A stretch of 38,599 nucleotides of DNA, taken from the NCBI GenBank assembly GCA_002402755.1, contig DHGK01000125.1, positions 7,822-46,420 of the forward strand, written 5' to 3'. Below the pieces are notes generated by a model. The model had not been told where the DNA came from, did no database searches, and saw nothing but the letters and a program-made list of their open reading frames with translations. Of this stretch, positions 4,252 to 17,980 are shown piece by piece. The stretch is from Planctomycetes bacterium UBA4800 (GTDB taxonomy: Bacteria > Planctomycetota > UBA8108 > UBA8890 > UBA8898). The stretch's first letter is position 1. Each line of letters starts with the position of its first letter. The position numbers and the translations under genes are program-made.

Positions 4252-5033
4252 ACGGAGCGCCGCGGCGAACGGCGGCGCGGGCGAGGGACGGCGGCGGCTT
4301 CTCGCGAGGCTCGGTGCGAAGCATGGTGACGCGCAGGTTGCTCGACAGGTTGTGGGCCGAGGGCGCGGCGGGGCGGTCGTGGTGCCGCGTGCGGCGGGCG
4401 GTGCGGCCGGCGGCGCCGGAGCGGCGCGGGGAGCCGGCGCCCGAGCAACGCGCCGTGCCGCCGCCCGCGGGCGCCGAGCCTTCCGATTCGCTCGAGGCCA
4501 TTGCCGCCGAGGCGGCCGCGTGCACTCGGTGCAGGCTGGGGGCGCTGCGAACGCATGCGGTGCCGGGCGAGGGCGCCCGCTTCCCGCGCATCGTCTTCGT
4601 GGGCGAGGCGCCCGGGGAGGACGAGGACCGGCAGGGGCGTCCGTTCGTCGGCCGCGCCGGCGCGCTCCTCACGCGAATGATCGCCGCGATGGGCTTCTCG
4701 CGTGAACAGGTATTCATTGCCAACGTGCTCAAATGCCGGCCGCCCGGAAATCGGTCGCCGGAGCCCGACGAGATCGCGGCCTGCAAGGACTATCTGCGGC
4801 GGCAGCTCGCGCTGCTTGCCCCCGAAGTGATCGTGCCGCTCGGCGCGCACGCGGCGCGGTGGATGCTCGGGGACACGGTGACGATCAGCCGGGTGAGGGG
4901 CCGCGTCCATGTGTATGGGGCGGCGAAGGTTGTTCCCACGTTCCACCCCAGCTATCTCCTCCGCAAGCCCGAGGAGAAGGGGAAGGCCTGGGAGGACCTC
5001 CAGACTGCAATGCGGCTCCTCGGATTGCGGTGA
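4248..5033 (+). CDS. Uracil-DNA glycosylase, family 4, with Arg-rich N-terminal extension
   Basis: CTRCRL...VPGEG...IVFVGEAPGEDEDRQGRPFVGRAGALL...FIANVLKCRPPGNRSPEPDEIAACKDYL...PTFHPSYLLR are the family-4 UDG motifs. The GTG at 4248 overlaps the mtaB stop (GTGA). An internal ATG at 4323 is an alternative start. Confidence 0.85.
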   Translation: MNGAPRRTAARARDGGGFSRGSVRSMVTRRLLDRLWAEGAAGRSWCRVRRAVRPAAPERRGEPAPEQRAVPPPAGAEPSDSLEAIAAEAAACTRCRLGALRTHAVPGEGARFPRIVFVGEAPGEDEDRQGRPFVGRAGALLTRMIAAMGFSREQVFIANVLKCRPPGNRSPEPDEIAACKDYLRRQLALLAPEVIVPLGAHAARWMLGDTVTISRVRGRVHVYGAAKVVPTFHPSYLLRKPEEKGKAWEDLQTAMRLLGLR

Positions 5034-5119
5034 TTTCGGCGCCTCCGGGCGCGTTTCCGGTGCCGCCGGCCGAGCCCGGACTTACGTGCGCGCGGCCGCC
5101 GGCCCGCGCAACTGCCGGC

Positions 5120-5148
5120 TTGACCCGCAACTCCTGACGGCTTATAAT
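5120..5148 (+). promoter_or_regulatory. Sigma70-type consensus promoter (TTGACC-17 nt-TATAAT)
   Basis: TTGACC at 5120-5125, an exact 17-nt spacer, then TATAAT at 5143-5148. It sits in an AT-richer island in an otherwise GC-rich sequence, about 275 nt upstream of the pilM-like start. Confidence 0.65.
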
Positions 5149-5423
5149 CGAAACTCGTATTGACCGAGCCGCAGTACACTGTTCGAGAGAAGCAAGTAAC
5201 GGAGGAAAAGCCCAATGGGTTCGATCCCGATGCCGCGCGCTCGGCCGGGATGATCAGTTGTTGACTCCTTCCCCGATGCTTGCCCTCGCGGACGTATAGT
5301 GTACTGCGCCGGGGTGCGATTGTGCACCGAGCACTCTCGCCCGGCGAATGAGCGACGATGGCCCGCGCGCGCCGGGCGCGCGAAGGCGGAGAGCGAGACG
5401 AAGCCCAAGCAGTCGAGGTACTC

Positions 5424-7586
5424 ATGGCGGGTTTCAGCGCGGTCTGGAGCATCGATATCGGCAAGTTCGCCCTCAAGGCGGTCCACCTGCGCCGCGTCGG
5501 CATGCAGGTGGTTGTCCAGGGGACGGAGCGCATTGAGTACGACATCGGTCCGGAGGGCGTCGATTCCATCGGGGGCGCGAGGGAGGCCCTGCAGATCTTC
5601 ACCTCCCGCAATTCGATCCGCGACCCGTTCGTCGTCTGCCTGCCCGGGCAGGATACCCTCCCGCGGTTCATAAAGATCGTCGCCGACGACGAGAAGAAGC
5701 TCGAGGAACTGGTCAACTTCGAGGCGCGCCAGCAGATCCCGTTCGACATCCAGGAGGTCGTGTGGGACTGGCAGCTCGTGCCGCGCGACTACGCGGCCGG
5801 CCAGGAGCGGGAGATCGGCATCTTCGCCGCCCGGCGCGAGACCGTGGACGATCTCCTGCTGGAGCTCGGCGGCCACGGGATCCGCGGCCAGCAGGTGATC
5901 TGCGGCGACCTGGGGCTGCTCAACTTCGTCCTGTACGAGCTGAGGCCGAAGGCGCCGAGCGTGATCCTCGATGTCGGCGCCGACCACACGGCCCTGATCC
6001 TGGTCGACAACGGCGCGTTCTGGATCCGCGCGCTGCCGTTCTCGGGCAACCAGATCACCCGCGACCTGAGCCAGCGCTTCCGGCTCACGTTCGCGGAGGC
6101 CGAGCGCGTCAAGCGCCAGGCCGCCAAGAGCCCGCAGAAGGACAAGATCTTCGCGGCGCTGCAGAAGGTGCTCGGGGACTTCACGACCGAGGTGCAGCGC
6201 TCGGTCGCGTTCTACAGGCGCCAGATCGCCGAGACGAACTTCGAGACGGCGTACCTGCTCGGGCAGGGAAGCTTCACGCTGGGGCTCGGCCAGGTCGTCC
6301 AGGAGCGGCTCGGGTGGAAGGTGCAGCGCGTGGCGTCGCTGGCTCGGATGCGGCCCGCGGACGGCCTCGATGTGGCGGAGCTGAGGACGCAGCTCTCGTC
6401 GCTGGCTCCGGCGCTCGGCGCGGGGCTGCAGGGCCTGGGACTCGCCGCCACGAACGTCGACCTCATGCCGCACGAGCAGCAGGTGCAGCTCGCGTTCACG
6501 CGCAAGCGCAAGATGGTCTTCGTTGCCGGGGGCGTGCTCCTCGGCGCGCTCCTCGTGCTCGGCCGGGGGTACTCGAACAAGGCGGACGCGGCCAAGGAGT
6601 CGAACAGGGAGAGCGACAAGATCGTTGCGCAGCTCGACGGCGCCAGGAAACAGCTCGTCAAGACGAACGACATTCCGCTGCTGAAGGCCAAGATCGAGAC
6701 GCTCGCGCAGATCGGGCAGGAGCGCCAGTACTTCTCGGAGTCGCTGGCCGAGGTCAACAAGCTCTTCGCCGCCATCGAGAAGAGCGCGTACGATCGTCAG
6801 GCGCCGGGCAGGGTCACCACGCCCCTTGGGACCGAGAAGCCGCGCGCGCGCACGATCTTCATAGCGAAGCAGGAAGACGAGAACGACGCCCAGGCCGAAG
6901 CGCTGAACCGCATGGCGTCCGTGCACAAGCACATGGCATGGATGCTCTCGCTCGATGCGGCGCTGAAAGGCATCGAGACCGAGCGTACGGGCGCCGCCGC
7001 CGCGCGGGCGGCCGACGCCAGGGCGGCCGACAAGGCCAAGGCCGCCCCGCCGGCCCTGTCGTACGTCTTCACGCTCACGGGCGCCGTGCTCGCCCGCGAG
7101 ACCCCCGACGAGAGCCGCCGGTTCGTGGACTCCGTGGTGGTGGCGCCCTTGACGGCGGCCTTGCGCAAGAATCGGATTCTCGCCGGGCATGTCACGGCGG
7201 CGCCGAGGCTCCAGGTGCTCGACCAGACGGCGCTCGCCGAGCCCGCGTTCGATGATGACCGCCTGTTTGCGAAGAACTGGCTGCTCGTCGATCCGAAGCT
7301 GCTGCGCGATCAGGAGAAGGACAAGCGGGAGTCGCAGGCGGCCAGAGACGTCGGCCTGGCCGACGACGACAAGTACTACATGTTCAGCCTCAAGTGGACG
7401 GTCAGCGAGAAGGCGGCGGCGAAGGCCGCCGCCGCGGCGCCGGACGATGCCGCGGTCGCGCCGCCCGAGGAACCCGAAGAATCGCCCGCGGAGGGCCCGG
7501 CGGAGATTCCCGAGGAGGCCGCCGAGCCGGAGGCGCTCCTGCCGGAACCTCCCATGGAGGAGGCGGACGGCGCCGCCGAGGAGTAG
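5424..7586 (+). CDS. pilM: PilM-like actin-fold ATPase domain fused to a TM helix and PilN-like periplasmic domain (GspL-like topology), with acidic Pro/Glu/Ala tail
   Basis: N-terminus WSIDIGKFALKAV (phosphate-1), VILDVGADHTALILV (phosphate-2) and FEARQQIPF...VWDW are typical of PilM. Then comes the basic stretch plus TM helix RKRKMVFVAGGVLLGALLVLGRGY, a coiled-coil-like segment and a roughly 300-aa periplasmic part. The tail reads PPEEPEESPAEGPAEIPEEAAEPE. I prefer the ATG at 5424 over 5358. Confidence 0.8.
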   Translation: MAGFSAVWSIDIGKFALKAVHLRRVGMQVVVQGTERIEYDIGPEGVDSIGGAREALQIFTSRNSIRDPFVVCLPGQDTLPRFIKIVADDEKKLEELVNFEARQQIPFDIQEVVWDWQLVPRDYAAGQEREIGIFAARRETVDDLLLELGGHGIRGQQVICGDLGLLNFVLYELRPKAPSVILDVGADHTALILVDNGAFWIRALPFSGNQITRDLSQRFRLTFAEAERVKRQAAKSPQKDKIFAALQKVLGDFTTEVQRSVAFYRRQIAETNFETAYLLGQGSFTLGLGQVVQERLGWKVQRVASLARMRPADGLDVAELRTQLSSLAPALGAGLQGLGLAATNVDLMPHEQQVQLAFTRKRKMVFVAGGVLLGALLVLGRGYSNKADAAKESNRESDKIVAQLDGARKQLVKTNDIPLLKAKIETLAQIGQERQYFSESLAEVNKLFAAIEKSAYDRQAPGRVTTPLGTEKPRARTIFIAKQEDENDAQAEALNRMASVHKHMAWMLSLDAALKGIETERTGAAAARAADARAADKAKAAPPALSYVFTLTGAVLARETPDESRRFVDSVVVAPLTAALRKNRILAGHVTAAPRLQVLDQTALAEPAFDDDRLFAKNWLLVDPKLLRDQEKDKRESQAARDVGLADDDKYYMFSLKWTVSEKAAAKAAAAAPDDAAVAPPEEPEESPAEGPAEIPEEAAEPEALLPEPPMEEADGAAEE

Positions 7587-7592
7587 GTCACC

Positions 7593-8654
7593 ATGGAGAG
7601 CTTGAAGAAGAACGGATTCCTGGTCGGCGTGATCGCCATGGTCATCGGGATCGGGGTCTTCGCCTACTTCGTCAGTTGGAGCTGGGGCATCAGCAAGTAC
7701 CACAGCCTTCAGCGCGAGGTCTCGAAGAACGAGAGCTCGCTCGGCGCCTACGCCAAGATGAAGCCCGAGGATCTTCCCACCGATCGCAAGCTCGAGAACG
7801 ACACCGAGCTTCAGACGGCGCTGCGGGGGATTCTCGCCGACGTCGAGCGGTTCTACACCGAGCGCGTCGAGAAGCTTGTACGCCTGCAGCTCGTCAAGGG
7901 CGGCGAGACGTTCACGGCGAGGGATGACGCGGCGTTCGGCTCCGCGTTCAACACGGCGCTCGACGAGCTGAACAAGAAGTACGCCGAGGTCCGCGCCGAG
8001 TACGTGAAGCGCGTGTACCCGGCGCACGTGGCCGCGAATCCCGAGGCGGCGCAGGCGCAGCCGAGGATCTCGTTGAGCCCGACGATCTCGAGCAACGAGG
8101 CCGATCTGGTCGAGGCGGCGCAGATGTGCCGCGTGACGACCGCGCTCATCGCGGCGGCGACCGAGGCGCGGTGGGGCGGACTCACGTCCGTCGTCTTCGA
8201 GAAGAAGAAGACGACGAAAGCGGCGGAGGAGAGATCCAGGACCCCGCGCGCGGCGGAAACCGCGAAGAAGGGCCCCGCGATGACCGGCAAGGGGGGCAAA
8301 TCCGCGACAAAGGAGGAACCGCCCCCCGTCGTTCCCGAGTACAGCGCCCGGGACCTGTACGAGCGCGTGAAGCTGACGGCGGCGGGCGAGATCCGGTTCG
8401 AGGACATCGGCCCGTTCCTGCACGCCCTGGAGCTGCGCGCGCAGGATGCGGACGACCCCGTGTTCTTCGTCGTCGATGAGTGCGTGCTGACCAAGCAGAA
8501 GGATCGGCTGCTCAAGCCGCTCTACAAGGCGCAGGAGCCGTTCCAGAAGCTCGACGATGCGAAGCAGGCGCCGCCGGACTTCGAGGTCAAGCTGCCCACG
8601 GCCACGATGCGGCTCACCCTGAGCGTGTTGAAATACAGAGGATTCGCCCAGTAG
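7593..8654 (+). CDS. Bitopic membrane protein, positional analogue of PilO/GspM
   Basis: GAGGAG lies 9 nt upstream of the ATG. The N-terminal TM helix is FLVGVIAMVIGIGVFAYFVSW, followed by a helical and then a mixed periplasmic domain. There is an internal Lys/Thr/Ala-rich basic stretch (EKKKTTKAAEERSRTPRAAETAKKGPAMTGKGGKSATK). The functional call rests on position and topology only. Confidence 0.55.
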   Translation: MESLKKNGFLVGVIAMVIGIGVFAYFVSWSWGISKYHSLQREVSKNESSLGAYAKMKPEDLPTDRKLENDTELQTALRGILADVERFYTERVEKLVRLQLVKGGETFTARDDAAFGSAFNTALDELNKKYAEVRAEYVKRVYPAHVAANPEAAQAQPRISLSPTISSNEADLVEAAQMCRVTTALIAAATEARWGGLTSVVFEKKKTTKAAEERSRTPRAAETAKKGPAMTGKGGKSATKEEPPPVVPEYSARDLYERVKLTAAGEIRFEDIGPFLHALELRAQDADDPVFFVVDECVLTKQKDRLLKPLYKAQEPFQKLDDAKQAPPDFEVKLPTATMRLTLSVLKYRGFAQ

Positions 8655-8676
8655 CGTACGAGCGTGAGGAGCAAGC

Positions 8677-9912
8677 ATGGCGTCGGTTAAGGAGCAACTT
8701 TCAGCCCACTGCGACAAGCTGGCGTTCGGCATCGTGGCGGTCATGGTGATCGCCATGATCGCCGTCACCTGGACGGGCGAGGACAAGATCTCGATCAGCC
8801 AGGACCGGATCGTGCAACACCTCAAGGCCATCGACGATCACAAGAAGGATGCGGAGCTGCTGCCCCCCGCGGAACCCCTCGATCCGAGGACGGACATCGC
8901 ACGGCGTTCGTCCAGGGCCTCGATCCCGAAGGATGCGTGGACGCCCTTCGCCATGGATGTCCAGCCTGCGGTCGTGCGCATCTACAGCAGGGCGGCGACG
9001 TTCGACTCCGTGCACGGGGAGCCGGCGATCACGAGCGTCGCCATAACCCGCGACGCGGAGAAGAAGAAGCCCGTCATCACGGTGACCTTCCGGTTCGGCG
9101 AGCTGATCGAGGTCGGCGACGCGGCGGCGCGCGTTGAGCGCCGGGCCGCCGGCACGACCGCGTGGCGGGTCGTCGCGACGATTCCGCATGCGGAGGGCAC
9201 GGACGTCTACACGTGCGTCGACGCCGATGTGGAGGCGGGCGCGAGCTACATGTACAAGGTGACGTCCACGGCGACTCGGCTGAAGTCGAAGTGGCGGGCG
9301 GATTCGGGCCCCACGAAGACGTGCAGGGAGCCGGCGCCGCCCGAGGCCGACCTCGGCAGCTACGCGGTTCCCGCGGACCTGCGGATGATGTTCGTCCAGG
9401 GGAAGGTCACCGACCTGTCCGGCCCGGGAGAGGGGTACTTCAACGTCGAGGCGTACGAGTACGCGGCGGGCGCGTCCGTCGTCGAGCGCATGATCAAGCG
9501 CGATGAGGTGCTCGGCCTGAACCGGAAGCCGGATGCCGCGAAGGATCTCCTTCCGCGCACGAGGTACTACCTGAACGTCGTCAAGCAGGGGGAGAAGGGC
9601 CTCGTGGCGGTGCTGAAAGACATCGACACGCGCAGGGAGATCCAGCTTCCGCAGGGCTCCTGGGTGCCGGGGTCGATCGAGTGCCCCAAGGCCTGGGAGG
9701 CGGCGGCCCCGCCGCCGCCGGCGGCGGAGGATGAGACCATCGCGCCGGAGGACGCGCCTCCGGCGGAGGCGGCGCCCGCGCCGCCGGAGTCCGAACCGGC
9801 GGCGCCCGACGAGCCCCCGGCCGAGGAAGAAACCGATCCCAAGGACGAACCGTCGGAGGATGAAGCAGGTGGGGCCGCCGAGGGCGATGCCGGCGGCGGT
9901 CCGTTCAAGTAG
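8677..9912 (+). CDS. Bitopic membrane protein with FN3-like beta-sandwich and PilP/GspC-HR-like segment, acidic Pro/Ala/Glu tail
   Basis: GAGGAG lies 5 nt upstream of the ATG. TM helix LAFGIVAVMVIAMIAVTW. FN3-like signature ...VITVTFRF...WRVVATIP...YTCVDADVEAGASYMYKVTS. A later beta-rich segment reads YYLNVVKQGEKGLVAVLKDIDTRREIQL. The roughly 70-aa C-terminal tail reads AAEDETIAPEDAPPAEAAPAPPESEPAAPDEPPAEEETDPKDEPSEDE. The PilP-like role is inferred from position. Confidence 0.55.
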   Translation: MASVKEQLSAHCDKLAFGIVAVMVIAMIAVTWTGEDKISISQDRIVQHLKAIDDHKKDAELLPPAEPLDPRTDIARRSSRASIPKDAWTPFAMDVQPAVVRIYSRAATFDSVHGEPAITSVAITRDAEKKKPVITVTFRFGELIEVGDAAARVERRAAGTTAWRVVATIPHAEGTDVYTCVDADVEAGASYMYKVTSTATRLKSKWRADSGPTKTCREPAPPEADLGSYAVPADLRMMFVQGKVTDLSGPGEGYFNVEAYEYAAGASVVERMIKRDEVLGLNRKPDAAKDLLPRTRYYLNVVKQGEKGLVAVLKDIDTRREIQLPQGSWVPGSIECPKAWEAAAPPPPAAEDETIAPEDAPPAEAAPAPPESEPAAPDEPPAEEETDPKDEPSEDEAGGAAEGDAGGGPFK

Positions 9913-9921
9913 AAGGAGAGC

Positions 9922-12528
9922 GTGCCTGTGTTGCAGACGAGGATGACAGCAGCGTGGCATGGGCTTTTGGGGCGCGTGTCCCGGAGAGAGGTTGCGACGA
10001 TGAACGCACATGAGCATCTGGGCGGAGGGAGGTTCTCCCGGACCGGCGGGAGGACGATCGCGCTGGCAGTGGCGGCGCTGCTTGCCTGGGGCGCCGCGGC
10101 GCAGGCGGCGGCGGCCGAGCCTTCGGCGCCCGGCGGCGTTGCGGCGGCGGGCGCGGAGGCCGCGCTCGCGTTCGAGGTGCGCCAGGAAACCGCCCGCGCG
10201 CTCCTGAAGGAGGCTCGCGCGTTGAAGGATGAGCTGCGGTACGGCGAGGCCGAGAAGAAGCTCGAGCAGGCGCTCAGGTACGATCCGGCGCTGACCGATG
10301 CGCAGGTCGAGCTGGATTCCGTGCGGTTCCTCCTGGGACGGCTCGTCGGCGAGCGGGCGGAGACGATCGGCAAGATCCGGGACGATCAGATGCTGCTCGT
10401 CGAGCAGGCGCAGGCGCAGCTCAAGCGGCTCTTCGCCGATGGCGAGGCCTTGATGGCGCAGAAGAAGTACGAGCAGGCCCTCGAGAAGTTCTCCCGCGCC
10501 GTGGAGATCGACAGCTACTACCCCTGGAGCCTCAACATGCCCGAGCTGGTCAAGGCCGCGCGCGTGCAGATCGATACGTGCACGCGCCTGCTGGCGGACC
10601 AGAAGGCCGAGGAGCGGCGGCAGATCGAGGCCGAGCTCCGGGCCCGCGCCGAGGGCGACCGCGTGCGGGAGGTCAAGTACACCGAGACCCGCATCAGGCT
10701 GTACAAGACCCAGGCCGAGGAGGCGCTCCTGGAGAGCAGGTTCGACAAGGCCGAGCAGCATGCGCTGCAAGTGCTCGAGCTCGATCCCCGAAACGCCGAC
10801 GCGCAGTCGATCCGCGCGCGGGCGAGGTATCTCCGGCACCTGTTCGCCAGGGACCGAATCGAGCGCGAGACCCGCAGGAACTGGGATCTGGTGCTGCGCG
10901 GCATCCTGGAGACGACGGTGTCCTACCACCACATCTTCCAGTTCCCGCCGCGGAAGGTCTGGGAGAAGCTGGGCGAGGAGCGCATCTCGCTGGAGGAGCA
11001 GGTCGCGGCCGAGGAGCCCATCGCGAACCGCGACGTGCGCAGAATCCTGGAGACGACCAAGATCCAGCGGATCAGCTTCGAGGACCGGCCGCTCCACGAG
11101 GTGCTCGACTACCTGAGCCAGATCGCGGGCGTCAGCTTCGTGCCGAACAAGTCCGCGCGCGAGGCCATGGAGTCCGATGATCTCAAGGTCAACCTGCCGG
11201 AAGTCCAGAGCCTCATGCTCAAGAACGTGCTCGACATCGTGCTGGAGGCCGTCGGCGAGGGCTACGGCTACCAGATTCAGAACGGCGCCGTCATCATCGG
11301 GCCGAGGAGCTCGCTCGCCGAGAAGATGCACCTGGCCTTCTACTCGGTCGAGGACATCGCCAACCAGCATCCGGACTATCCGGCGCCGCCCATGTCCGTC
11401 AACCTGACGGGCGGGCAGGACCAGGGCGGGAGCGTCCTCCTGGATATCGCGGATACGGCGGACACGACCAAGACCGGACTGCCCGGCGAGCAGCTCCTGG
11501 AGCTGATTCGCAAGCGCATCTTCGTCGACGATGAAAAGAACGGCACGGTCGAGATGCAGACCGGCAAGCTCGTCGTCAGGACGTCGCTGGAGAACCATCG
11601 CAAGATCAACGAACTGCTGGAGAGCCTGCGCAAGCTGTCCGGCGTGCTCGTCGCGAGCGAGGCGCGCTTCATCGACATCCAGGACAACATGCTGGAGGAG
11701 ATCGGCGTGAACATCGGCGGGACGGTCGAGAGCGCCCTGGAGTATCCGATCCCCGACGTGAACGGCCTGGGCACCTCGGTGGCATCCGGGTACGTGTTCC
11801 TCGACCGGCGCATGCGGTACGAGTCGCGCGCCGCGAACATCTCCGACTACAGCGGCGTCATGGGCACCGAGATCACGCCGTTCAACATCACGGCCCAGGG
11901 CGGCATGGCGCTGCAGTGGAACGTGCTGGAGGACTACCAGCTCGAGGCCATCCTCACCATGGTCCAGAAGAAGCAGAAGACGCGCTCGCTGGATGCGCCG
12001 CGCGTGCTCGCGTTCGATTCGCAGACGGCGCACACCATGGTGATCGACCAGATCGCGTACATCAAGGACGTCGATGTCAATCAGACCGGCGTCAGCCCCG
12101 TGATCAACCCGCTGATCGGGTCGTTCCGCGTGGGGTCGCTGCTCGAGATCCGCCCCACGGTCACGCACGACCGCAAGTTCGTCATCCTGGAGGTCAAGCC
12201 GACGACGGCCAAGCACATCGATTCGAAGTACGCGGACCTGAGCCTCGCCCAGGGCTACACCATGGTGCAGGTCGAGCTGCCCGTGATCCTGCTCTCGCGG
12301 ATCCAGACGACGATCACGATTCCGGACGGCGGATCCGTGCTCGTCGGCGGCTTGAAGAAGGTGATCGAGCAGGACAAGAGCATCAGCGTCCCGATCATCC
12401 AGCGGATCCCGATCCTCAACATAATGTTCGGCCGGCAGGGCCAGTCGCGGCTCCGCAACAGCCTGTTCGTGATGATCAAGGCGGACATCGTGATCGTGAA
12501 GGAAGAGGAGAAGCTCAACTTCCCGTAG
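9922..12528 (+). CDS. Secretin (GspD/PilQ family) with N-terminal TPR-like region, paralogue 1
   Basis: C-terminal secretin core: ARFIDIQDNMLEEIGVNIGG ... ITIPDGGSVLVGGLKKVIEQDKSISVPIIQRIPILNIMFGRQ...LFVMIKADIV. N0-like domain: IQRISFEDRPLHEVLDYLSQIAGVSFV...GYGYQIQNGAVIIGP. TPR-like units: YGEAEKKLEQALRYDPALTDAQ, KKYEQALEKFSRAVEID and SRFDKAEQHALQVLELDPRNADAQ. Signal peptide: RTIALAVAALLAWGAAAQAAAAEP. The start is uncertain: GTG 9922, GTG 9928 or ATG 9991. Confidence 0.9.
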   Translation: MPVLQTRMTAAWHGLLGRVSRREVATMNAHEHLGGGRFSRTGGRTIALAVAALLAWGAAAQAAAAEPSAPGGVAAAGAEAALAFEVRQETARALLKEARALKDELRYGEAEKKLEQALRYDPALTDAQVELDSVRFLLGRLVGERAETIGKIRDDQMLLVEQAQAQLKRLFADGEALMAQKKYEQALEKFSRAVEIDSYYPWSLNMPELVKAARVQIDTCTRLLADQKAEERRQIEAELRARAEGDRVREVKYTETRIRLYKTQAEEALLESRFDKAEQHALQVLELDPRNADAQSIRARARYLRHLFARDRIERETRRNWDLVLRGILETTVSYHHIFQFPPRKVWEKLGEERISLEEQVAAEEPIANRDVRRILETTKIQRISFEDRPLHEVLDYLSQIAGVSFVPNKSAREAMESDDLKVNLPEVQSLMLKNVLDIVLEAVGEGYGYQIQNGAVIIGPRSSLAEKMHLAFYSVEDIANQHPDYPAPPMSVNLTGGQDQGGSVLLDIADTADTTKTGLPGEQLLELIRKRIFVDDEKNGTVEMQTGKLVVRTSLENHRKINELLESLRKLSGVLVASEARFIDIQDNMLEEIGVNIGGTVESALEYPIPDVNGLGTSVASGYVFLDRRMRYESRAANISDYSGVMGTEITPFNITAQGGMALQWNVLEDYQLEAILTMVQKKQKTRSLDAPRVLAFDSQTAHTMVIDQIAYIKDVDVNQTGVSPVINPLIGSFRVGSLLEIRPTVTHDRKFVILEVKPTTAKHIDSKYADLSLAQGYTMVQVELPVILLSRIQTTITIPDGGSVLVGGLKKVIEQDKSISVPIIQRIPILNIMFGRQGQSRLRNSLFVMIKADIVIVKEEEKLNFP

Positions 12529-12655
12529 ACGGGACTTCAGGAGAACGCAGGGAGGAACGAGGCGGCGCCGCGGCGCGCGGACGCGGATTCCCGCGGGGCG
12601 CGCCGGCCGCAGCGAGGAGCATATGAGCGGACGAAGCAATCCAAAGGAGACGGGC

Positions 12656-15328
12656 ATGAGAAGGATCACTTCCGTTCTTGCGATCGGAGCACTCGTCGCG
12701 GCGGCCGGTTGCATGCAGCCGCAGAGGACGCGGCCGGCGCAGGCCGACGCCCCGACGAGATCATCGCAGCTCCGGGAGATCGACGAGCTGGAGCGCGCGA
12801 TGGAGATCGACGCGGCCGTGACGACGTCCGACGCGGCCCCGGCGCCGGACGCGGCTCCCATGCCCGCGCCGGCCCCGGCCGGGACGCTCCGGGCGGCCGA
12901 GGCCGCGGTCGCCGGGGCGGCCGATGAGAAGAAGAGCCTCAACCGCCAGATTGCAGCCGACTACATCGCGCGCGGCGACAAGAAGCGCGAGGGCGCGGAT
13001 TACCAGGCCGCGGCGGCGCTGTACGAGCAGGCGGTGAAGGCGGACGCGGAGAACGTCGAGGCGCGCGAGAAGCTGCGTCTGTCCGAGATGATGCTCGGCA
13101 AGCGCGACGCGTCCGTCGCGGCGGTCATGCAGGAGTGGAGCGCCGAGATGAACGTCGAGCGCGAGGCGCGCCTGAACGAGGTCGACCGCCTCATCGAGGA
13201 ATCCCTGAAGGCCATGACGGAGTACCGGCTCCAGGAAGCCCAGTTGATGCTCCAGCAGGCGAAAGCCCGGCTGGCGCTGTTCGAGGCCTCGACCGAGACG
13301 CAGGGCCGCCAGGCGCGCCTGGAGAACCTCCTGGTCCAGGCGAACGATCTCCTGCGGCGGCGCGCGGTCGAGACCCGCGAGCAGCAGGAAGCGGCGATCC
13401 GCACGGCGATCGAGAAGGACGCGGCGTTCCGCGACGAGCAGAAGAAGGAGCGGATCAGGGTGCTGGTCGAGGCCGCGAGCGAGGCCTACCGCCTGCAGGA
13501 TTACGCGCAGTGCGTGCAGATCTGCGAGGTCGTCCTGAAGGAGAATCCGCGCCAGATCCAGGCGCGCGCGCTCCTGAAGAAGTCCAGGGACATGGAGAAG
13601 TCCCTCTGGGAGCGGGAGCACGACGCGGCGCTCAAGGAGCACTCGAAGCTGACGTGGGAAGGGCTCGAGGATGCGGCCAAGCCGCCGTCGACCGCCTTCG
13701 AGTTCCCCGGCGAGGAGCGCTGGAACATCGTCAGGAAGCGCGAGGCCGATGTGCAGATCGGCATGATCGAGGAGTCCGAGGAGGTCAAGGAGATCAAGCG
13801 GCGCCTGGCGACCGCGCGGATCACGATCGACTTCGACAACAAGCCGCTCGCGGACGCCATCGACTACATCAAGAAGATCACCCAGATCAACATTCACATC
13901 GACAAGGACGTGGACCCCGAGGAGACGAAGGTCAAGCTCAACCTGACGCAGGTGAAGCTCCAGGATGCCCTCGAACTGATGATGCTGAACACGGGGCTGG
14001 CGTACACCTTCAGGAACAACGTCCTGACGATCACGGTGCCCGAGAAGGCCCGGGGCCTCGTTATCCTGAAGATCTACACGGTGACGGACATCCTGAGCAG
14101 GATCAGGGATTTCCCCGGCCCGAAGCTGGAGATCACGACTCCCGACGAGGAGACCGAATCCGGCGGCGGCCCCGGCGGCACCGGCTTCCAGTTCGAAGAG
14201 GGCGAGGAATCCAAGACGCTCGAGCCCGAGCAGCTCCAGAAGCTGGTGCAGGAGAGCACGGGCGGCCAGGACGTCTGGGACGGGGAGATCAACCGCATCC
14301 AGGTGCACCGCGGACAACTGCTCGTCGAGGCGAGCCCCGAACTGCACGCGAGGGTGGCCCGCGTGCTCGATGAGCTGCGCCAGGACGCCGACCTCTTCGT
14401 GGTCGTCAAGGCGCGGTTCGTCGACATCACGAACGATTTTCTGGAGGACATCGGCGTCGACTACCGCAATCTCAGCCAGCGCAACACGCCGTGGCGCAGC
14501 ACGTACAGCGGGCGCATCCACGACAGCCGGACGGGCGGGCAGGATCCGGGCTTCACCGACGCGCTGGGCGTGGAGAATCCGGAGCTGGTCGGGCGCATGC
14601 AGAACACCCTCGACGGCTACGCGAGCCTGATCCGCGGCGACCGCGTCTTCGGCGGCCCCGGCGGGCTGAGCGGCCTGAGCCTGCAGTTCATGATGGTCGA
14701 TCCGTACCAGATCAACGCGATCGTGCGCGCGGTCCAGGAGGAGAGCGGCGTCAAGTCGGTGATCGCGCCCGAGGTCACGGCGCACAACGGCCAGCGCGTG
14801 TACGTGTCGGTGATCACGCAGCGCTCGTACATCGCGGACTACGAGCTGGTGTCCGGCGGCACGACGTACACCCTGACGGAAGTCGCGGACCCGATCGTGC
14901 GCGTCAACGAGGAAGGCGTGGTGCTCGATGTGCGGCCGAGCGTGAGCGCGGACCGCAAGTACATCACGATCGATGTCCAGCCGACGCTCGCGACCCTCAT
15001 CGGCGGCGTGATCTCCACCGTGCTCATCAACCTCGGCACGGTCATGGCCGCGGCCATGCAGGTCCCGATCGGGCTGCCGAAGATGTCGATCCAGCGGACG
15101 TGGACGTCGGTCACCGTGCCGGACGGCGGCACGGTGCTCCTGGGCGGCTTCCGGAGCCTGGAGGAGCGCAAGTACCATTCCTCGATCCCGATCCTCGGGG
15201 ATATCCCGGTGCTGAACCTGCTCGTGAGCCGCAAGGCCGAGCTGCGGGAGAAACGCAGCCTGATCATCCTGCTGACGGCGAAGCTGGTCGACCTCCGGCA
15301 GGAGGAAATCGAGCGCTTCGGCCAGTAG
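12656..15328 (+). CDS. Secretin (GspD/PilQ family) with lipoprotein signal and N-terminal TPR-like region, paralogue 2 (putative liposecretin)
   Basis: AAGGAG lies 6 nt upstream of the ATG at 12656. MRRITSVLAIGALVAAAGC is a signal peptide with a lipobox. TPR-like units: GADYQAAAALYEQAVKADAENVEAREKL and YRLQDYAQCVQICEVVLKENPRQIQARALL. N0-like domain: ITIDFDNKPLADAIDYIKKITQINIHID...GLAYTFRNNVLTITVP. Secretin core: ARFVDITNDFLEDIGVDYRN ... VTVPDGGTVLLGGFRSLEERKYHSSIPILGDIPVLNLLVSRK...LIILLTAKLV. It is collinear with paralogue 1. Confidence 0.9.
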   Translation: MRRITSVLAIGALVAAAGCMQPQRTRPAQADAPTRSSQLREIDELERAMEIDAAVTTSDAAPAPDAAPMPAPAPAGTLRAAEAAVAGAADEKKSLNRQIAADYIARGDKKREGADYQAAAALYEQAVKADAENVEAREKLRLSEMMLGKRDASVAAVMQEWSAEMNVEREARLNEVDRLIEESLKAMTEYRLQEAQLMLQQAKARLALFEASTETQGRQARLENLLVQANDLLRRRAVETREQQEAAIRTAIEKDAAFRDEQKKERIRVLVEAASEAYRLQDYAQCVQICEVVLKENPRQIQARALLKKSRDMEKSLWEREHDAALKEHSKLTWEGLEDAAKPPSTAFEFPGEERWNIVRKREADVQIGMIEESEEVKEIKRRLATARITIDFDNKPLADAIDYIKKITQINIHIDKDVDPEETKVKLNLTQVKLQDALELMMLNTGLAYTFRNNVLTITVPEKARGLVILKIYTVTDILSRIRDFPGPKLEITTPDEETESGGGPGGTGFQFEEGEESKTLEPEQLQKLVQESTGGQDVWDGEINRIQVHRGQLLVEASPELHARVARVLDELRQDADLFVVVKARFVDITNDFLEDIGVDYRNLSQRNTPWRSTYSGRIHDSRTGGQDPGFTDALGVENPELVGRMQNTLDGYASLIRGDRVFGGPGGLSGLSLQFMMVDPYQINAIVRAVQEESGVKSVIAPEVTAHNGQRVYVSVITQRSYIADYELVSGGTTYTLTEVADPIVRVNEEGVVLDVRPSVSADRKYITIDVQPTLATLIGGVISTVLINLGTVMAAAMQVPIGLPKMSIQRTWTSVTVPDGGTVLLGGFRSLEERKYHSSIPILGDIPVLNLLVSRKAELREKRSLIILLTAKLVDLRQEEIERFGQ

Positions 15329-15352
15329 CGCGCCGCGCGCGCGGCCGATATC

Positions 15353-15391
15353 ATCCGGGGAGGCGTTCGCGCCTCCCCGGATGTTTTTGTT
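15353..15391 (+). terminator. Rho-independent terminator (13-bp GC-rich stem, UUCG loop, T-tract)
   Basis: atccggggaggcg (15353-15365), ttcg loop, cgcctccccggat (15370-15382), then gtttttgtt. The 13 base pairs are perfect. It begins 25 nt after the second secretin stop. Confidence 0.9.
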
Positions 15392-15430
15392 GCCGGCGCG
15401 GGTGCGGCCGCCGGCGCCGCCGATGAGGAG

Positions 15431-16231
15431 ATGCCCGTGTCCACGCTGCGCGCGATCTTCTTCGACCTGGACGATACGCTGTACTCGACGAGCGAGTTCG
15501 CCGAGCGCGCGCGGCGGAACAGCGTCGAGGCCATGATCAAGATGGGGCTGCGCGCCGACCCCGCCGTGCTCGCCGCGGAGCTCGGCGAGGTCGTCGAGGA
15601 GTTCTCGTCGAACTACGAGCGCCACTTCGACCAACTGCTCCGGCGGCTGCCCCGGCGCCTGTACCGCGGCGTGAATCCCGCGATCATCGTCGCGGCCGGC
15701 GTGGCGGCGTACCACGACACGAAGTTCCGGTATCTGTGCCCGTACGAGGACGCGTACGAGGCGCTGCGGGAGCTGGCGCGGACCGAGCTCGTCCGCGGCG
15801 TGATCACCGCGGGCCTCGCCGTCAAGCAGGCCGAGAAGCTCGTGCGCCTGCGCATCGCGCCGTTGCTGTCGCCCGGGGCCATCTTCATCTCCGACCAGCT
15901 CGGCGTCAACAAGCCGAACGTGAAGATGTACCAGCGCGCGTGCTCGGACCTGAATCTCAAGCCGGCGGAGACGATGTACGTCGGCGACAACGCGGCGATG
16001 GATATCGATCCCCCCAAGCGCATCGGAATGCAGACGGTCCATGTCGTCCGCGGCGGCAAGCACGCCGGCGAGGGCGCGGAGTGCGCGCCGGACTGGACGG
16101 TCGGCAACTTCTGGGAGCTTCTCGACGTGCTCCGCGATCACCTGGGGGTGGCGATGCCCCCGCGTACGGCCGAGGGCGGCCCCGAGCAGCATGCACACCA
16201 GGCTTCTGGTACTGACCGCGGCGTGGCCTAG
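15431..16231 (+). CDS. HAD-superfamily hydrolase (subfamily IA-like phosphatase)
   Basis: Motif I IFFDLDDTLY. Motif IV-like YVGDNAAMDIDPPKRIGMQTV. The GTG at 15437 (GAGGAG 6 nt upstream) is an alternative start. The 3' end overlaps the next gene by 41 nt. Confidence 0.85.
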   Translation: MPVSTLRAIFFDLDDTLYSTSEFAERARRNSVEAMIKMGLRADPAVLAAELGEVVEEFSSNYERHFDQLLRRLPRRLYRGVNPAIIVAAGVAAYHDTKFRYLCPYEDAYEALRELARTELVRGVITAGLAVKQAEKLVRLRIAPLLSPGAIFISDQLGVNKPNVKMYQRACSDLNLKPAETMYVGDNAAMDIDPPKRIGMQTVHVVRGGKHAGEGAECAPDWTVGNFWELLDVLRDHLGVAMPPRTAEGGPEQHAHQASGTDRGVA

Positions 16232-17312: not shown

Positions 17313-17980
17313 CGACGTACGAACGCTACTGGAAGGCCCGTGAGGGCGCCGTTCGGGAGCGCCTCCGCCGGCGAAGCCTTCAGCGGGCGCGCGCCGCGCA
17401 TGCGATGCTGGCGATCCGGAGCGGCACGTTGCTCGACGTGGGATGCGGCCCGGGCTTCGCGGCCGAGTTCTTCGCGGCGCGGGGATTCGCCGTGACGGGC
17501 GTCGAGCCCGCGCCGTCGGCGGCGCAGGACGCGCGCACGCGCGGGATCACGGTCGTGGAAGGCGATCTGTCGGCGGGCGCGCTGCCGCCGGGGCCGTTCG
17601 ATGTCGTGCTCGCGCTGGAGGTGCTCGAGCATCTCGCCGACCCGATCGCGGCCCTCGGCGCGCTCATGCGCGCGGCGCGGCCGGACGGCGAGGTCGTGGT
17701 GTCGCTGCCGAACGAGTGGCACATCCTGCGGCGGCTCGCGTTGCTCCTCGGCGCGGAGCCCCTAGGGGGCGCCGAGGATCCCCACATCCGGCACTTCGGC
17801 CTGCGCGCGGCGCGGCGGCTCTTCGATGCGGCCGGCGTGCCCGTGCGCGTCGAGCGTGCGGTCGCGATCATCCCGCCCTGGTGCGGCGCCGCCGATGCCG
17901 CGGGCCGGGTGCTCGCGCGGGCCGCGCCGCGGCTTTTCGGCCTGAGCTTCCTTTTCCTGGCGCGCAAGGAGGGGCGGTGA
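17279..17980 (+). CDS. Class I SAM-dependent methyltransferase
   Basis: Motif I LLDVGCGPGFAAEFFAARGFAVTGVE. Post-I/II motifs FDVVLALEVLEHLADP and PDGEVVVSLPN. The ATG at 17279 overlaps the GT4 3' end. Only the last 233 aa of track ORF 16436..17980 look like real protein. Confidence 0.8.
   Translation: MRPRRPAIDAVTTYERYWKAREGAVRERLRRRSLQRARAAHAMLAIRSGTLLDVGCGPGFAAEFFAARGFAVTGVEPAPSAAQDARTRGITVVEGDLSAGALPPGPFDVVLALEVLEHLADPIAALGALMRAARPDGEVVVSLPNEWHILRRLALLLGAEPLGGAEDPHIRHFGLRAARRLFDAAGVPVRVERAVAIIPPWCGAADAAGRVLARAAPRLFGLSFLFLARKEGR

What the first reader, a model, noticed from the sequence alone, without database searches (positions are those of the whole stretch)
5120..15391. Self-contained five-gene envelope operon: PilM-PilN fusion, two bitopic proteins and two secretins, with no pilin, ATPase or platform gene
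A near-perfect promoter (TTGACC-17-TATAAT) and a strong UUCG-loop terminator bracket exactly five co-directional genes with 6-127 nt gaps and good SD sites. The content resembles a pilMNOPQ alignment-complex operon but differs in three ways:
- The PilM-like actin-fold domain is covalently fused to the TM and periplasmic PilN-like part, giving a GspL-like topology.
- The next two genes are much larger than typical PilO/PilP. I recognise them only by bitopic topology, an FN3-like fold and position.
- The operon ends in two paralogous TPR-bearing secretins rather than one.

The flanking genes are housekeeping, so whatever fibre or substrate this machine serves is encoded elsewhere. It could be a divergent type IV pilus, T2SS-like or other secretin-dependent system.
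Basis: partly seen in the sequence, partly recalled or inferred. Interest (0 to 1): 0.75.

Follow-up and report, generated by a model that had tools for sequence, protein, structure and literature searches.

The report
Planctomycete pilus-scaffold operon with two secretins
This is a real five-gene operon for the membrane-spanning scaffold and outer-membrane pores of a type IV pilus-like machine, a variant widespread in Planctomycetes and related to the Akkermansia Amuc_1098-1101 cluster, and its only unusual feature is a second, divergent pore gene.

Summary
A promoter match that is unique in the window (5120-5148), a conserved ~270-nt leader, five co-directional genes (5424-15328) and a 14-bp hairpin terminator (15352-15383) form one unit. 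No pilin, ATPase or platform gene lies in the 38.6-kb window.

- **g1** is a genuine PilM-PilN fusion. It has a PilM fold (TM-score 0.84), a PilN-type xLLP motif, a transmembrane (TM) helix, a coiled coil and a predicted alpha-beta-beta repeat domain.
- **g2** is not an orphan. Profile and fold evidence place it in the Amuc_1100/PilO/GspM superfamily.
- **g3** is a bitopic protein with only weak FN3 signals. It has no link to PilP or Amuc_1099 beyond its position.
- **g4** is the orthologue of the single TPR-secretin found in relatives.
- **g5** is 26% identical to g4, is not its sister, and occurs only in this lineage. It keeps a lipobox that g4 has lost.

The order long-PilM, g2, g3, secretin recurs across Planctomycetota. 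More than 541 species encode the long PilM, and 26 of 56 loci have an adjacent secretin.

This is a planctomycetal variant of the PVC-type pilMNOPQ-like module known from Akkermansia. Lacking pilin and ATPase genes is normal for pilMNOPQ operons. I rate it a new variant of a known kind, of moderate interest.

The parts
5120..5148 (+). Sigma-70-type promoter-like site, TTGACC-17-TATAAT
   Evidence: It matches 11 of 12 consensus positions. At one mismatch or fewer the pattern finds only one other site in the window, with 0.01 expected. It is conserved in L001 and L002, and an equivalent site occurs in L006. Function is inferred, not shown.
5149..5423 (+). Conserved ~270-nt 5' leader with an SD-ATG mini-ORF at 5216-5254 and a predicted long-range helix
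   Evidence: The leader is 88-91% identical among W, L001 and L002, against 47-71% upstream of the -35 hexamer. The alifold structure has 3 compensatory pairs. The folding z-score is -2.0. There is no Rfam hit. A ~30-nt motif is shared with L006/L007.
5424..7586 (+). g1: PilM-PilN fusion of 720 aa. It comprises a cytoplasmic PilM actin-like domain, a DLMP (PilN-type xLLP) motif, a TM helix, a periplasmic coiled coil, a predicted alpha-beta-beta repeat domain and an acidic Pro/Glu-rich tail.
   Evidence: Pfam PilM_2 scores 3.9e-25. NCBIfam Amuc_1101_fam scores 4e-59 (201 bits, below its cutoff), ahead of TIGR01175 pilM at 119 bits. The AF2 model has pLDDT 74. Foldseek gives TM-score 0.84 to 2ych and 0.80 to 5eou and 3jc8_M. 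The start at 5424 follows.
6459..6470 (+). DLMP motif (aa 346-349), the counterpart of the PilN N-terminal INLLP peptide
   Evidence: An xLLP motif, mostly NLLP, lies 12-26 aa before the TM in 71 of 81 long-PilM homologues. L347 and P349 are invariant in alignment A5.
6513..6575 (+). g1 transmembrane helix (aa 364-384)
   Evidence: It was found by hydropathy scan. It lies within helix 362-410 of the model.
7593..8654 (+). g2: bitopic protein of 353 aa in the Amuc_1100/PilO/GspM superfamily. It has an N-terminal TM, long helices and a ferredoxin-like C-terminal domain interrupted by a Lys/Ala/Pro-rich linker.
   Evidence: It has no direct Pfam or NCBIfam hit. An exhaustive profile search found 39 relatives. 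Of 32 scanned, 5 hit Amuc_1100_fam (best 1.6e-8) and 7 hit GspM (best 5e-5). hhalign against an alignment led by an Amuc_1100-family protein gave probability 100 and E 4.5e-40. Foldseek's top 10 PDB hits are all Amuc_1100 structures, followed by PilO, although the model is low confidence.
8677..9912 (+). g3: bitopic protein of 411 aa in the PilP/Amuc_1099 position. It has an N-terminal TM, an FN3-like region (~aa 125-195), a second beta-rich region and an acidic Pro-rich tail.
   Evidence: Family alignment A8 carries a Y.D..VEPG..Y.YRV motif. PDB profile hits to FN3 domains are weak (E 0.008-0.1). Pfam fn3 matches 2 of 14 members at 0.008. There is no PilP or Amuc_1099 hit.
10000..12528 (+). 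g4: TPR-secretin of 842 aa (the ORF opens at GTG 9922). It has a Sec-type signal peptide without a lipobox Cys and is the orthologue of the single secretin in relatives.
   Evidence: Pfam Secretin scores 5.9e-23, with TPR hits. It is 54% identical to the L006 secretin and 34-39% identical to those of L010, L012, L013, L015, L019 and L084. The N-terminus is shown.
12656..15328 (+). g5: second TPR-STN-secretin of 890 aa (the ORF opens at ATG 12623). It has a lipoprotein-type signal (LVAAAG|C).
   Evidence: Pfam Secretin scores 2.8e-21 and STN 7.9e-8. It is 26% identical to g4 over about 690 aa. Among 56 loci it occurs only in W, L001 and L002. It is not sister to g4 in the NJ tree. Its dN/dS is 0.19-0.33. 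The lipobox is shown.
15352..15393 (+). Intrinsic terminator-like hairpin with a 14-bp stem, a TTCG loop and a TTTTTGTT tail

Best explanation
The operon encodes the trans-envelope alignment-plus-secretin module of a type IV pilus-like (type IV filament) machine, in the form typical of the PVC superphylum. Its motor ATPase, platform protein, prepilin peptidase and pilins are encoded elsewhere.

The proposed mechanism below is inferred by analogy with PilMNOPQ.
- **g1 inside the cell:** the cytoplasmic PilM domain docks the ATPase and platform. It is tethered to the membrane covalently, because PilN is fused to it. The PilN INLLP-type peptide survives as DLMP just before the TM.
- **g1 and g2 in the periplasm:** the coiled coil and ferredoxin-like domain of g1 pair with the PilO-like g2 (Amuc_1100 family).
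- **g3:** this bitopic, FN3-bearing protein takes the PilP/GspC role of linking the inner-membrane ring to the secretin N0 (STN) domain.
- **g4:** it forms the outer-membrane channel.
- **TPR domains:** the N-terminal TPR domains of the secretins may act as built-in pilotin or peptidoglycan-spanning modules.
- **g5:** this anciently diverged secretin of the same planctomycetal family was added downstream in this lineage only. It either forms a second channel type served by the same inner-membrane scaffold, or it co-assembles with or pilots g4. g4 has lost the lipoprotein anchor that g5 and most relatives' secretins keep.

All five genes appear to be transcribed from one sigma-70-like promoter, through a conserved structured leader, to one intrinsic terminator.
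For: **Shown here**
- The operon anatomy and its conservation are established.
- g1 has a PilM domain by Pfam, PDB sequence search and fold comparison.
- g1 scores best against the Akkermansia Amuc_1101 family: 201 bits, against 119 bits for canonical pilM.
- The PilN-type xLLP motif lies before the TM in 71 of 81 homologues.
- The g1 model shows a TM, a coiled coil and alpha-beta-beta repeats.
- g2 is linked to Amuc_1100, PilO and GspM by three independent routes.
- The bridging locus L004 carries a long PilM, an Amuc_1100_fam protein (5e-16), a weak Amuc_1099 match (E 0.084) and an Amuc_1098_fam secretin (5e-66), in the same order.
- A secretin lies downstream on the same strand in 26 of 56 Planctomycetota loci. 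The iterated g2 and g3 profiles both find genes between it and the long PilM in 14 of those loci, counting W.
- More than 541 GTDB species encode the long PilM.
- Both secretins have complete Secretin domains and are under purifying selection.

**From the literature**
- The Akkermansia cluster Amuc_1098-1102 is abundant in the envelope fraction and is regarded as a type IV pili cluster (PMC5332112, PMC10688800).
Against: - No pilin, ATPase, platform or peptidase gene could be examined, because only 38.6 kb is available.
- g1, g4 and g5 all score far below the NCBIfam equivalog cutoffs. g2 and g3 give no direct hit to any PilO, PilP, Amuc_1100 or Amuc_1099 model.
- The g2 structural model is low confidence (pLDDT 51), and its TM-scores to Amuc_1100 are only 0.37-0.51.
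- The periplasmic domain of g1 has no Pfam PilN hit and no detectable profile similarity to g2 beyond the TM.
- The PilP-like role of g3 rests on gene position and topology alone.
- No experiment shows pili made by this cluster in any planctomycete. Even in Akkermansia the function is inferred.
- In 30 of 56 loci the long-PilM triad has no secretin within 9 kb.
Confidence: 0.65

Rival explanations
1. The module belongs to a T2SS-like protein-secretion machine that uses a short endopilus rather than a surface pilus. In this reading g1 acts as GspL, g2 as GspM, g3 as GspC and g4/g5 as GspD-type secretins.
For: - g1 has GspL-like fused topology.
- Seven of 32 g2-family members hit the T2SS GspM model, best E 5e-5.
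- g3 is bitopic like GspC, not a lipoprotein like PilP.
- The secretins also hit TIGR02517 GspD at 8e-18 and 6e-16.
Against: - The g1 cytoplasmic domain is a full PilM. Its TM-score is 0.80-0.84 to PilM but 0.54-0.60 to the GspL cytoplasmic domains.
- The gene order M-N-O-P-Q is that of T4aP, not gspC-M.
- The secretins score better against MshL and PilQ than against GspD.
- No gspE, gspF or gspG-K genes are adjacent, whereas T2SS genes usually cluster (my own knowledge).
- g3 has no PDZ or HR-domain hit.
Confidence: 0.12
2. The module is a PilMNO-derived envelope scaffold co-opted for a structure that is not a pilus, for example a press-stud-like junction between inner and outer membranes or a cage around another machine. 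In this reading the secretins act as outer-membrane anchors or pores, not filament conduits.
For: - There is a precedent. H. pylori PilM, PilN and PilO homologues, in a genome with no other pilus genes, form the flagellar motor cage (PMC10823254).
- In 30 of 56 planctomycete loci the long-PilM triad has no adjacent secretin.
- No filament genes lie in the window.
- Planctomycetal crateriform structures link the two membranes and their components are unknown (PMC5394234, PMC12673574).
Against: - Secretins are co-transcribed here and lie downstream on the same strand in 26 of 56 loci. Every characterised secretin serves a filament or secretion conduit (my own knowledge).
- PilM domains normally couple to PilB/PilC-type motors.
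- Separation of pilMNOPQ from the pilin and ATPase genes is common (my own knowledge).
Confidence: 0.13
3. The operon is composite. g1-g4 are one machine, and g5 is the secretin of a different type IV filament, T2SS or competence system that merely rides on the same transcript.
For: - g5 is only 26% identical to g4.
- It is not sister to g4.
- It is absent from all other sampled loci.
- It is separated from g4 by the largest gap, 127 nt, and has its own strong SD.
Against: - No + strand promoter-like or terminator-like site lies between g4 and g5.
- g5 belongs to the same TPR-STN-secretin family as the cluster-linked secretins of other planctomycetes, not to the short canonical secretins seen elsewhere in these genomes.
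- The arrangement is conserved in all three genomes of the lineage.
- The lipobox is lost from g4 only where g5 is present, which suggests functional coupling. This is a single evolutionary event.
Confidence: 0.25

Closest known systems
Akkermansia muciniphila Amuc_1098-Amuc_1102 'type IV pili-like' gene cluster (NCBIfam Amuc_1098_fam, Amuc_1099_fam, Amuc_1100_fam, Amuc_1101_fam)
   Same: - The order matches: long PilM-like protein with a TM (Amuc_1101), Amuc_1100-type bitopic protein, a third small envelope protein, then a large TPR-bearing secretin.
- g1's best family hit is Amuc_1101_fam at 4e-59, and the match covers the PilM domain, the TM and the start of the periplasmic part.
- The g2 family connects to Amuc_1100 by profile and by fold.
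- The bridging locus L004 carries recognisable Amuc_1100 and Amuc_1098 family proteins in the same order.
- Both organisms belong to the PVC group.
   Different: - All scores lie far below the equivalog cutoffs: 201 against 650 bits for g1, and 64 or 87 against 750 bits for the secretins.
- g2 and g3 give no direct hit.
- No Amuc_1102 equivalent lies upstream.
- g3 has an FN3-like region and no Amuc_1099 similarity.
- There are two secretins instead of one.
- The secretins score better against MshL and PilQ than against Amuc_1098_fam.
Canonical T4aP alignment subcomplex operon pilMNOPQ (P. aeruginosa, M. xanthus, T. thermophilus)
   Same: - The gene order and logic match: actin-like PilM, bitopic PilN and PilO, a connector, then the secretin.
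- g1 has the PilM fold, with TM-score 0.80-0.84.
- The INLLP-type motif is present.
- PilO appears among the structural hits for g2.
- The operon lies apart from the pilin and ATPase genes, as in P. aeruginosa (my own knowledge).
   Different: - PilM and PilN are one polypeptide.
- The periplasmic parts are about twice as long, with long coiled coils and low-complexity tails.
- The PilP position holds a bitopic FN3-like protein, not a lipoprotein with the PilP beta-sandwich.
- The secretins carry N-terminal TPR arrays rather than AMIN domains, and they are typically lipoproteins.
- There is a second secretin.
T2SS GspL/GspM/GspC/GspD, and T4bP PilO2/BfpC-type fused actin-like proteins
   Same: g1 shares the GspL-like topology of a cytoplasmic actin-like domain, a TM and a periplasmic ferredoxin-like domain. 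Some g2 relatives give weak GspM hits. PilO2Bp of the R64-type T4bP is reported to be a PilM-fold protein (PMC3984277, listed).
   Different: The cytoplasmic domain is a complete PilM rather than the reduced GspL fold. The gene order is not T2SS-like. No GspE-K genes are adjacent.
H. pylori flagellar-cage PilM/PilN/PilO
   Same: It is a PilMNO-type operon without pilin or ATPase genes. Its neighbourhood also includes a MiaB gene (PMC10823254 Fig. 1A legend), and a MiaB-like gene lies upstream of g1 here.
   Different: H. pylori has no secretin in the operon, its PilM and PilN are separate proteins, and the organism lacks T4P altogether. Here two secretins are co-transcribed.

Membership tests
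T4aP PilMNOPQ alignment/secretin module | PilM: cytoplasmic actin-like (FtsA/MreB-fold) protein | tested here: met
   Pfam PilM_2 scores 88.9 bits, above its 27-bit cutoff. PDB PilM hits reach 1.8e-21. Foldseek gives TM-score 0.84 to 2ych. TIGR01175 scores 118.9 bits, just below its 133-bit cutoff.
T4aP PilMNOPQ alignment/secretin module | PilN: N-terminal INLLP-type peptide that binds PilM, one TM, then a periplasmic coiled coil and ferredoxin-like domain | tested here: inconclusive
   The motif is met: xLLP occurs in 71 of 81 homologues and as DLMP here, 12-26 aa before the TM. The TM and coiled coil are predicted, and alpha-beta-beta repeats appear at moderate pLDDT. There is no Pfam PilN hit at E<=1, and the periplasmic fold could not be searched separately.
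T4aP PilMNOPQ alignment/secretin module | PilO: bitopic protein with a coiled coil and ferredoxin-like domain, paralogous to PilN | tested here: inconclusive
   There is no Pfam PilO hit. PilO structures 3jc8_O, 5uvr and 2rjz follow Amuc_1100 in the Foldseek list, at low probability and from a pLDDT-51 model. hhalign of the g1 periplasmic part against g2 matched only the TM.
T4aP PilMNOPQ alignment/secretin module | PilP: inner-membrane lipoprotein with a beta-sandwich domain that binds secretin N0 | tested here: not met
   g3 has an uncleaved N-terminal TM and no lipobox. It has no PilP hit in Pfam, NCBIfam or the PDB. Only weak FN3 signals appear. A PilP-like role is inferred from gene position alone.
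T4aP PilMNOPQ alignment/secretin module | PilQ: outer-membrane secretin with N0/N1 domains and a C-terminal secretin domain | tested here: met
   The Secretin domain scores 81.7 and 76.3 bits, above the 27.5-bit cutoff, and g5 has an STN (N0) domain. TIGR02515 PilQ hits lie below cutoff at 70 and 94 bits against 284.
T4aP PilMNOPQ alignment/secretin module | Partner PilB/PilT ATPases, PilC platform, PilD peptidase and pilins in the same genome | not testable with these tools
   Only the 38.6-kb window and 10-kb flanks of related loci are available. None of these genes is present there.
PVC Amuc_1098-1102 cluster | Amuc_1101-family long PilM-like protein | tested here: inconclusive
   It is the best-scoring NCBIfam family for g1 (4e-59, 201 bits, residues 79-472 on profile positions 59-463 of 608). 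It lies well below the 650-bit equivalog cutoff.
PVC Amuc_1098-1102 cluster | Amuc_1100-family protein encoded next to it | tested here: inconclusive
   There is no direct hit. Homology is transitive: the g2 profile reaches proteins that hit Amuc_1100_fam at 1.6e-8, and hhalign gives probability 100. Foldseek's top 10 hits are all Amuc_1100 crystal structures, at probability 0.77-0.98 and low TM-score.
PVC Amuc_1098-1102 cluster | Amuc_1099-family protein | tested here: not met
   None of 14 g3-family members hits Amuc_1099_fam. hhalign against the L004 third-gene product aligned only the TM-proximal 22 residues, at probability 23%.
PVC Amuc_1098-1102 cluster | Amuc_1098-family secretin | tested here: inconclusive
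   The hits are weak and partial (1e-17 and 6.5e-25, against a 750-bit cutoff), and weaker than the hits to MshL and PilQ. L004's secretin hits the family at 5e-66.
PVC Amuc_1098-1102 cluster | Amuc_1102 gene upstream of the PilM-like gene | tested here: not met
   The 390 nt between the UDG gene (4248-5033) and g1 hold only the promoter, the leader and a 12-codon mini-ORF.
T2SS (GspC/D/L/M) | GspL-type reduced actin-like cytoplasmic domain, with adjacent gspE-K genes | tested here: not met
   TM-scores to the GspL cytoplasmic domains are 0.54-0.60, against 0.80-0.84 to PilM. No Gsp genes lie in the window.

The most novel reading that the evidence does not exclude
The phylum-wide module of long PilM-PilN fusion, Amuc_1100-like protein, FN3 protein and TPR-liposecretin could be the molecular basis of the planctomycetal crateriform structures and their fibres. 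These are press-stud-like links between inner and outer membranes that have been implicated in macromolecule capture, and their components remain unknown. In this lineage the two divergent secretins would then specify two pore or fibre classes on one inner-membrane scaffold, or form a heteromeric secretin.
Probability: 0.1. Interest if true: 0.85.

Novelty: new variant of a known kind. Interest (0 to 1): 0.4.

Why it matters
The main gain is annotation. In Planctomycetota MAGs, g2 and g3 are currently labelled hypothetical and g1 is labelled plain PilM. Here they are tied to the Amuc_1100-type cluster of Akkermansia, which shows that the cluster is one end of a PVC-wide family of pilMNOPQ-like modules built on a natural PilM-PilN fusion.

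That gives a concrete, conserved gene set to delete or tag in tractable planctomycetes. Such experiments could ask which surface fibres, and possibly which crateriform structures, depend on it. It also offers a natural fused PilM-PilN for structural work.

The tandem of two distantly related secretins, with the lipobox kept in one and lost in the other, could be a case of secretin subfunctionalisation or heteromer formation. If confirmed, that would be unusual. None of this is categorically new, and the function is inferred.

Tried and rejected
- **Direct scans of g2 and g3.** Pfam, NCBIfam and PDB sequence scans gave nothing usable.
- **Wide g2 profile against PDB sequences.** This found only coiled-coil noise and not Amuc_1100. 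The link came from family scans, hhalign and Foldseek instead.
- **hhalign of the g1 periplasmic part against the g2 family.** This was meant to test PilN/PilO paralogy. Only the TM aligned.
- **g3 against Amuc_1099.** There was no family hit. hhalign against the third-gene product of L004 aligned only 22 TM-proximal residues.
- **Structure prediction of g3.**
- **Fold search of the g1 model.** The PilM domain dominates the results, so the periplasmic domain could not be compared on its own.
- **First local secretin count.** My iterated full-length secretin HMMs also picked up proteins without a secretin domain: a TPR protein in L018, a PQQ/BamB-type beta-propeller protein in L078 and a protein with no Pfam hit in L020. 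I therefore redid the count with an HMM of the secretin domain alone.
- **Horizontal transfer.** The operon's lower G+C (0.65-0.70, against 0.72-0.76 in the flanks) reflects codon positions 1 and 2. GC3 is 0.89-0.93, like the flanks. I rejected transfer as the explanation.
- **Rfam search of 4800-15700.** It gave only a sub-threshold chance hit on the terminator.
- **Downstream TPR proteins.** The 1122-aa TPR protein downstream (17443-20811) is not homologous to the TPR protein that follows the secretin in L006.
- **Literature searches.** Searches for natural PilM-PilN fusions and for the composition of crateriform structures found no paper that settles either.

Full report
**1. The observation**

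The window has about 70% G+C. Its closest relatives are Planctomycetota MAGs:
- ADurb.Bin069 (L001), at 83% amino-acid identity for g1
- PPR_0510 (L002), at 87%

Between 5120 and 15393 lie, in order:
- the only exact TTGACN-18-TATAAT match in the window, with one other site at one mismatch (11 of 12 to the sigma-70 consensus, 0.01 matches expected by chance)
- a leader of about 270 nt
- five + strand genes with GC3 of 0.89-0.93
- a 14-bp G+C-rich hairpin with a TTCG loop and a T-run

The ATG at 5358 is not conserved in L002. Gene callers on identical contigs start g1 at 5424, g4 at 10000 and g5 at 12656. With these starts the gaps are 6, 22, 87 and 127 nt, and every start has a GGAG/GAGG motif.

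The promoter is conserved in L001 and L002. The more distant L006 has its own TTGACC-17-TATAAT.

All five genes show dN/dS of 0.18-0.44 against L001 and L002.

The rest of the window is housekeeping: MiaB-like radical SAM, UDG, HAD, GT4, a TPR protein, L13/S9, his genes, TrxB-like and PlsY. There is no pilin, ATPase or platform gene.

**2. Gene 1 is a true PilM-PilN fusion**

- **Family hits.** Residues 1-340 match Pfam PilM_2 (3.9e-25) and PDB PilM chains (1.8e-21). The best NCBIfam family is Amuc_1101_fam, the 'PilM-like pilus complex protein' of Akkermansia. It scores 4e-59 and 201 bits, against 119 bits for canonical TIGR01175 pilM, but lies below its 650-bit equivalog cutoff.
- **Model.** An AF2 model built on 20 homologues (pLDDT 74) gives a PilM domain with TM-score 0.84 to T. 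thermophilus PilM and 0.80 to the P. aeruginosa and M. xanthus proteins. TM-scores to the GspL cytoplasmic domains are only 0.54-0.60. After the PilM domain come a TM helix, about 95 residues of coiled coil, and a helix-strand-strand pattern repeated twice (residues 483-661, moderate confidence). This is the pattern expected of PilN, PilO, GspL and GspM periplasmic domains. That last point is an inference from secondary structure, not a fold match.
- **Motif.** Just before the TM, 71 of 81 distinct homologues carry xLLP. It is NLLP in 54 of them and DLMP here, and it lies 12-26 residues upstream of the TM. This is the signature N-terminal peptide of PilN that PilM binds (my own knowledge; PDB 2ych and 5eou are PilM:PilN-peptide complexes).

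The fusion is therefore real. It occurs in more than 541 GTDB species, almost all of them Planctomycetota.

**3. Gene 2 belongs to the Amuc_1100/PilO/GspM superfamily**

Direct scans are empty. An exhaustive profile search with six close homologues found 39 proteins. Among 32 of these, five hit NCBIfam Amuc_1100_fam (best 1.6e-8) and seven hit T2SS GspM (best 5e-5).

hhalign of the close g2 family against the distant set gives probability 100% and E 4.5e-40 over 305 columns. The distant set is led by the L004 protein, which carries Pfam PF28028 Amuc_1100 and hits Amuc_1100_fam at 5e-16.

The AF2 model of g2 is poor (pLDDT 51). Even so, it shows a TM, long helices and a split beta-alpha-beta domain. 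Its ten best PDB matches are all Amuc_1100 crystal structures (probability 0.77-0.98, TM-score 0.37-0.51), followed by M. xanthus and P. aeruginosa PilO.

These are three independent but individually modest lines of evidence, and they agree with gene position.

**4. Gene 3 remains unassigned**

g3 is bitopic, with an N-terminal TM and no lipobox. It carries a conserved Y.D..VEPG..Y.YRV motif and an acidic Pro-rich tail.

- The family profile weakly matches FN3 domains in the PDB (E 0.008-0.1).
- Two of 14 members hit Pfam fn3 at 0.008.
- Nothing links it to PilP, GspC or Amuc_1099.

Its connector role is inferred from position only.

**5. The secretins**

Both have complete Secretin domains and N-terminal TPR repeats, and g5 also has an STN (N0) domain. 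They are only 26% identical.

g4 is the orthologue of the single secretin in related clusters: 54% identical to L006's and 34-39% to several others. g5 has orthologues only in L001 and L002.

I counted secretins with an HMM restricted to the secretin domain. Of 56 non-redundant loci with at least 7 kb downstream, 26 have a same-strand secretin within 9 kb of the long-PilM gene. Only W, L001 and L002 have two.

In an NJ tree without bootstraps, g5 sits inside the planctomycetal TPR-secretin family but is not sister to g4. It is therefore an old paralogue or a transfer within the phylum, not a recent tandem duplicate.

Most single secretins of relatives, and g5, have a lipobox Cys. The g4 proteins of the three two-secretin genomes have lost it. 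This is a single evolutionary event, so it is suggestive only.

**6. Context in relatives**

The order long-PilM, g2-like, g3-like, secretin is seen in many Planctomycetota classes, including Brocadiia, Phycisphaerae and Planctomycetia.

The bridging locus L004 has recognisable Amuc_1101, Amuc_1100 and Amuc_1098 family members, with a weak Amuc_1099 match, in the same order.

In Akkermansia, the products of Amuc_1098-1102 are abundant envelope proteins. The cluster is described as a type IV pili cluster, with Amuc_1098 as PilQ (PMC5332112, PMC10688800).

**7. Interpretation**

The operon is the alignment-plus-secretin module of a PVC-type type IV pilus-like machine. The motor, platform and pilins are expected to lie elsewhere, as is usual for pilMNOPQ operons (my own knowledge). 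The mechanism is by analogy and is not shown here:
- PilM docks the motor.
- The PilN part pairs with the PilO-like g2.
- g3 bridges to the secretin N0 domain.
- g4 forms the channel.
- g5 forms a second channel, or it partners or pilots g4.

I weighed three rivals:
- a T2SS-like secretion role
- a co-opted non-pilus scaffold, with the H. pylori flagellar cage as precedent (PMC10823254)
- a composite operon in which g5 serves another system

**8. Novelty**

However, 'self-contained, no pilin or ATPase' is not unusual. g2 is not an orphan, and the architecture is a widespread planctomycetal variant of a cluster already modelled by NCBI for Akkermansia.

What is new relative to that is:
- the documented PilN motif in the fusion
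- the FN3-like third gene
- the TPR-liposecretin pattern
- the lineage-specific second secretin with complementary lipobox loss

I found no paper on this module in Planctomycetes. The composition of crateriform structures is still unknown. That leaves a low-probability but interesting reading open.

Verdict: a new variant of a known kind, with interest 0.4.

Noticed in passing
window 5149-5423 (also L001 9733-10000, L002 3615-3883, L006 ~9700-10000): The ~270-nt leader between the promoter and g1 is 88-91% identical among three genomes whose synonymous sites differ by 0.3-0.6. Sequence upstream of the -35 hexamer is only 47-71% identical. The predicted structure has a long-range helix (CAGTACACTG at 5172-5181 pairs with CAGTGTACTG-type sequence at about 5296-5305) and a hairpin with two compensatory pairs. 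The folding z-score is -2.0 and there is no Rfam match. The leader holds an SD-ATG mini-ORF (MGSIPMPRARPG*, 5216-5254). The start region of that mini-ORF, GAAGCAAGT...GGAG...ATGGG, is also conserved in the distant L006/L007, where the ORF is 65 codons long.
   Followed up: partly
window 10000-10150 (g4 N-terminus) versus 12656-12750 (g5 N-terminus); secretin N-termini of L006, L010, L012, L013, L015, L017, L018, L030 and L079: Most single cluster-linked secretins of relatives have a lipoprotein signal ending in Cys, and so does g5 (LVAAAG|C). The g4 proteins of the three genomes that also have g5 end their signal peptide without a Cys (AWGAAAQA|A). This could reflect subfunctionalisation or dependence of g4 on g5. 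It is a single evolutionary event.
   Followed up: partly
window 2986-4251 (+); L006 7456-8712; L003 8538-9884 (-); L088 8514-9878 (-): A MiaB-like gene (UPF0004 + Radical_SAM) lies next to the long-PilM gene in distantly related planctomycete loci, in either orientation. The H. pylori pilMNO neighbourhood described in PMC10823254 also starts with MiaB. This is probably coincidental synteny. I did not test it.
   Followed up: no
window 7400-7583 (g1 C-terminus), 8200-8340 (g2 linker), 9690-9909 (g3 C-terminus): g1 and g3 end in long acidic Pro/Glu/Ala-rich low-complexity tails. g2 has a Lys/Ala/Pro-rich linker that interrupts its C-terminal domain. Homologues keep these regions in kind but not in sequence, and they are modelled with pLDDT below 50. 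They could be periplasmic spacers or peptidoglycan-crossing segments.
   Followed up: no
L003 12439-15806, L088 12393-15740, and 30 of 56 loci: In many Planctomycetia and Phycisphaerae loci, including Gemmataceae and Pirellulales, the long-PilM gene is followed by two larger genes with no Pfam hit (about 420-620 and 670-690 aa). There is no secretin within 9 kb. The g1-g2-g3 triad therefore seems to be the conserved core, with the secretin linked only facultatively.
   Followed up: partly
L004 13806-16889 and L079 14121-16973: In these two loci the cluster secretin is split or overlapped by a second ORF that carries the C-terminal secretin domain (244 and 241 aa). This suggests frameshifts, assembly errors or pseudogenisation.
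   Followed up: no
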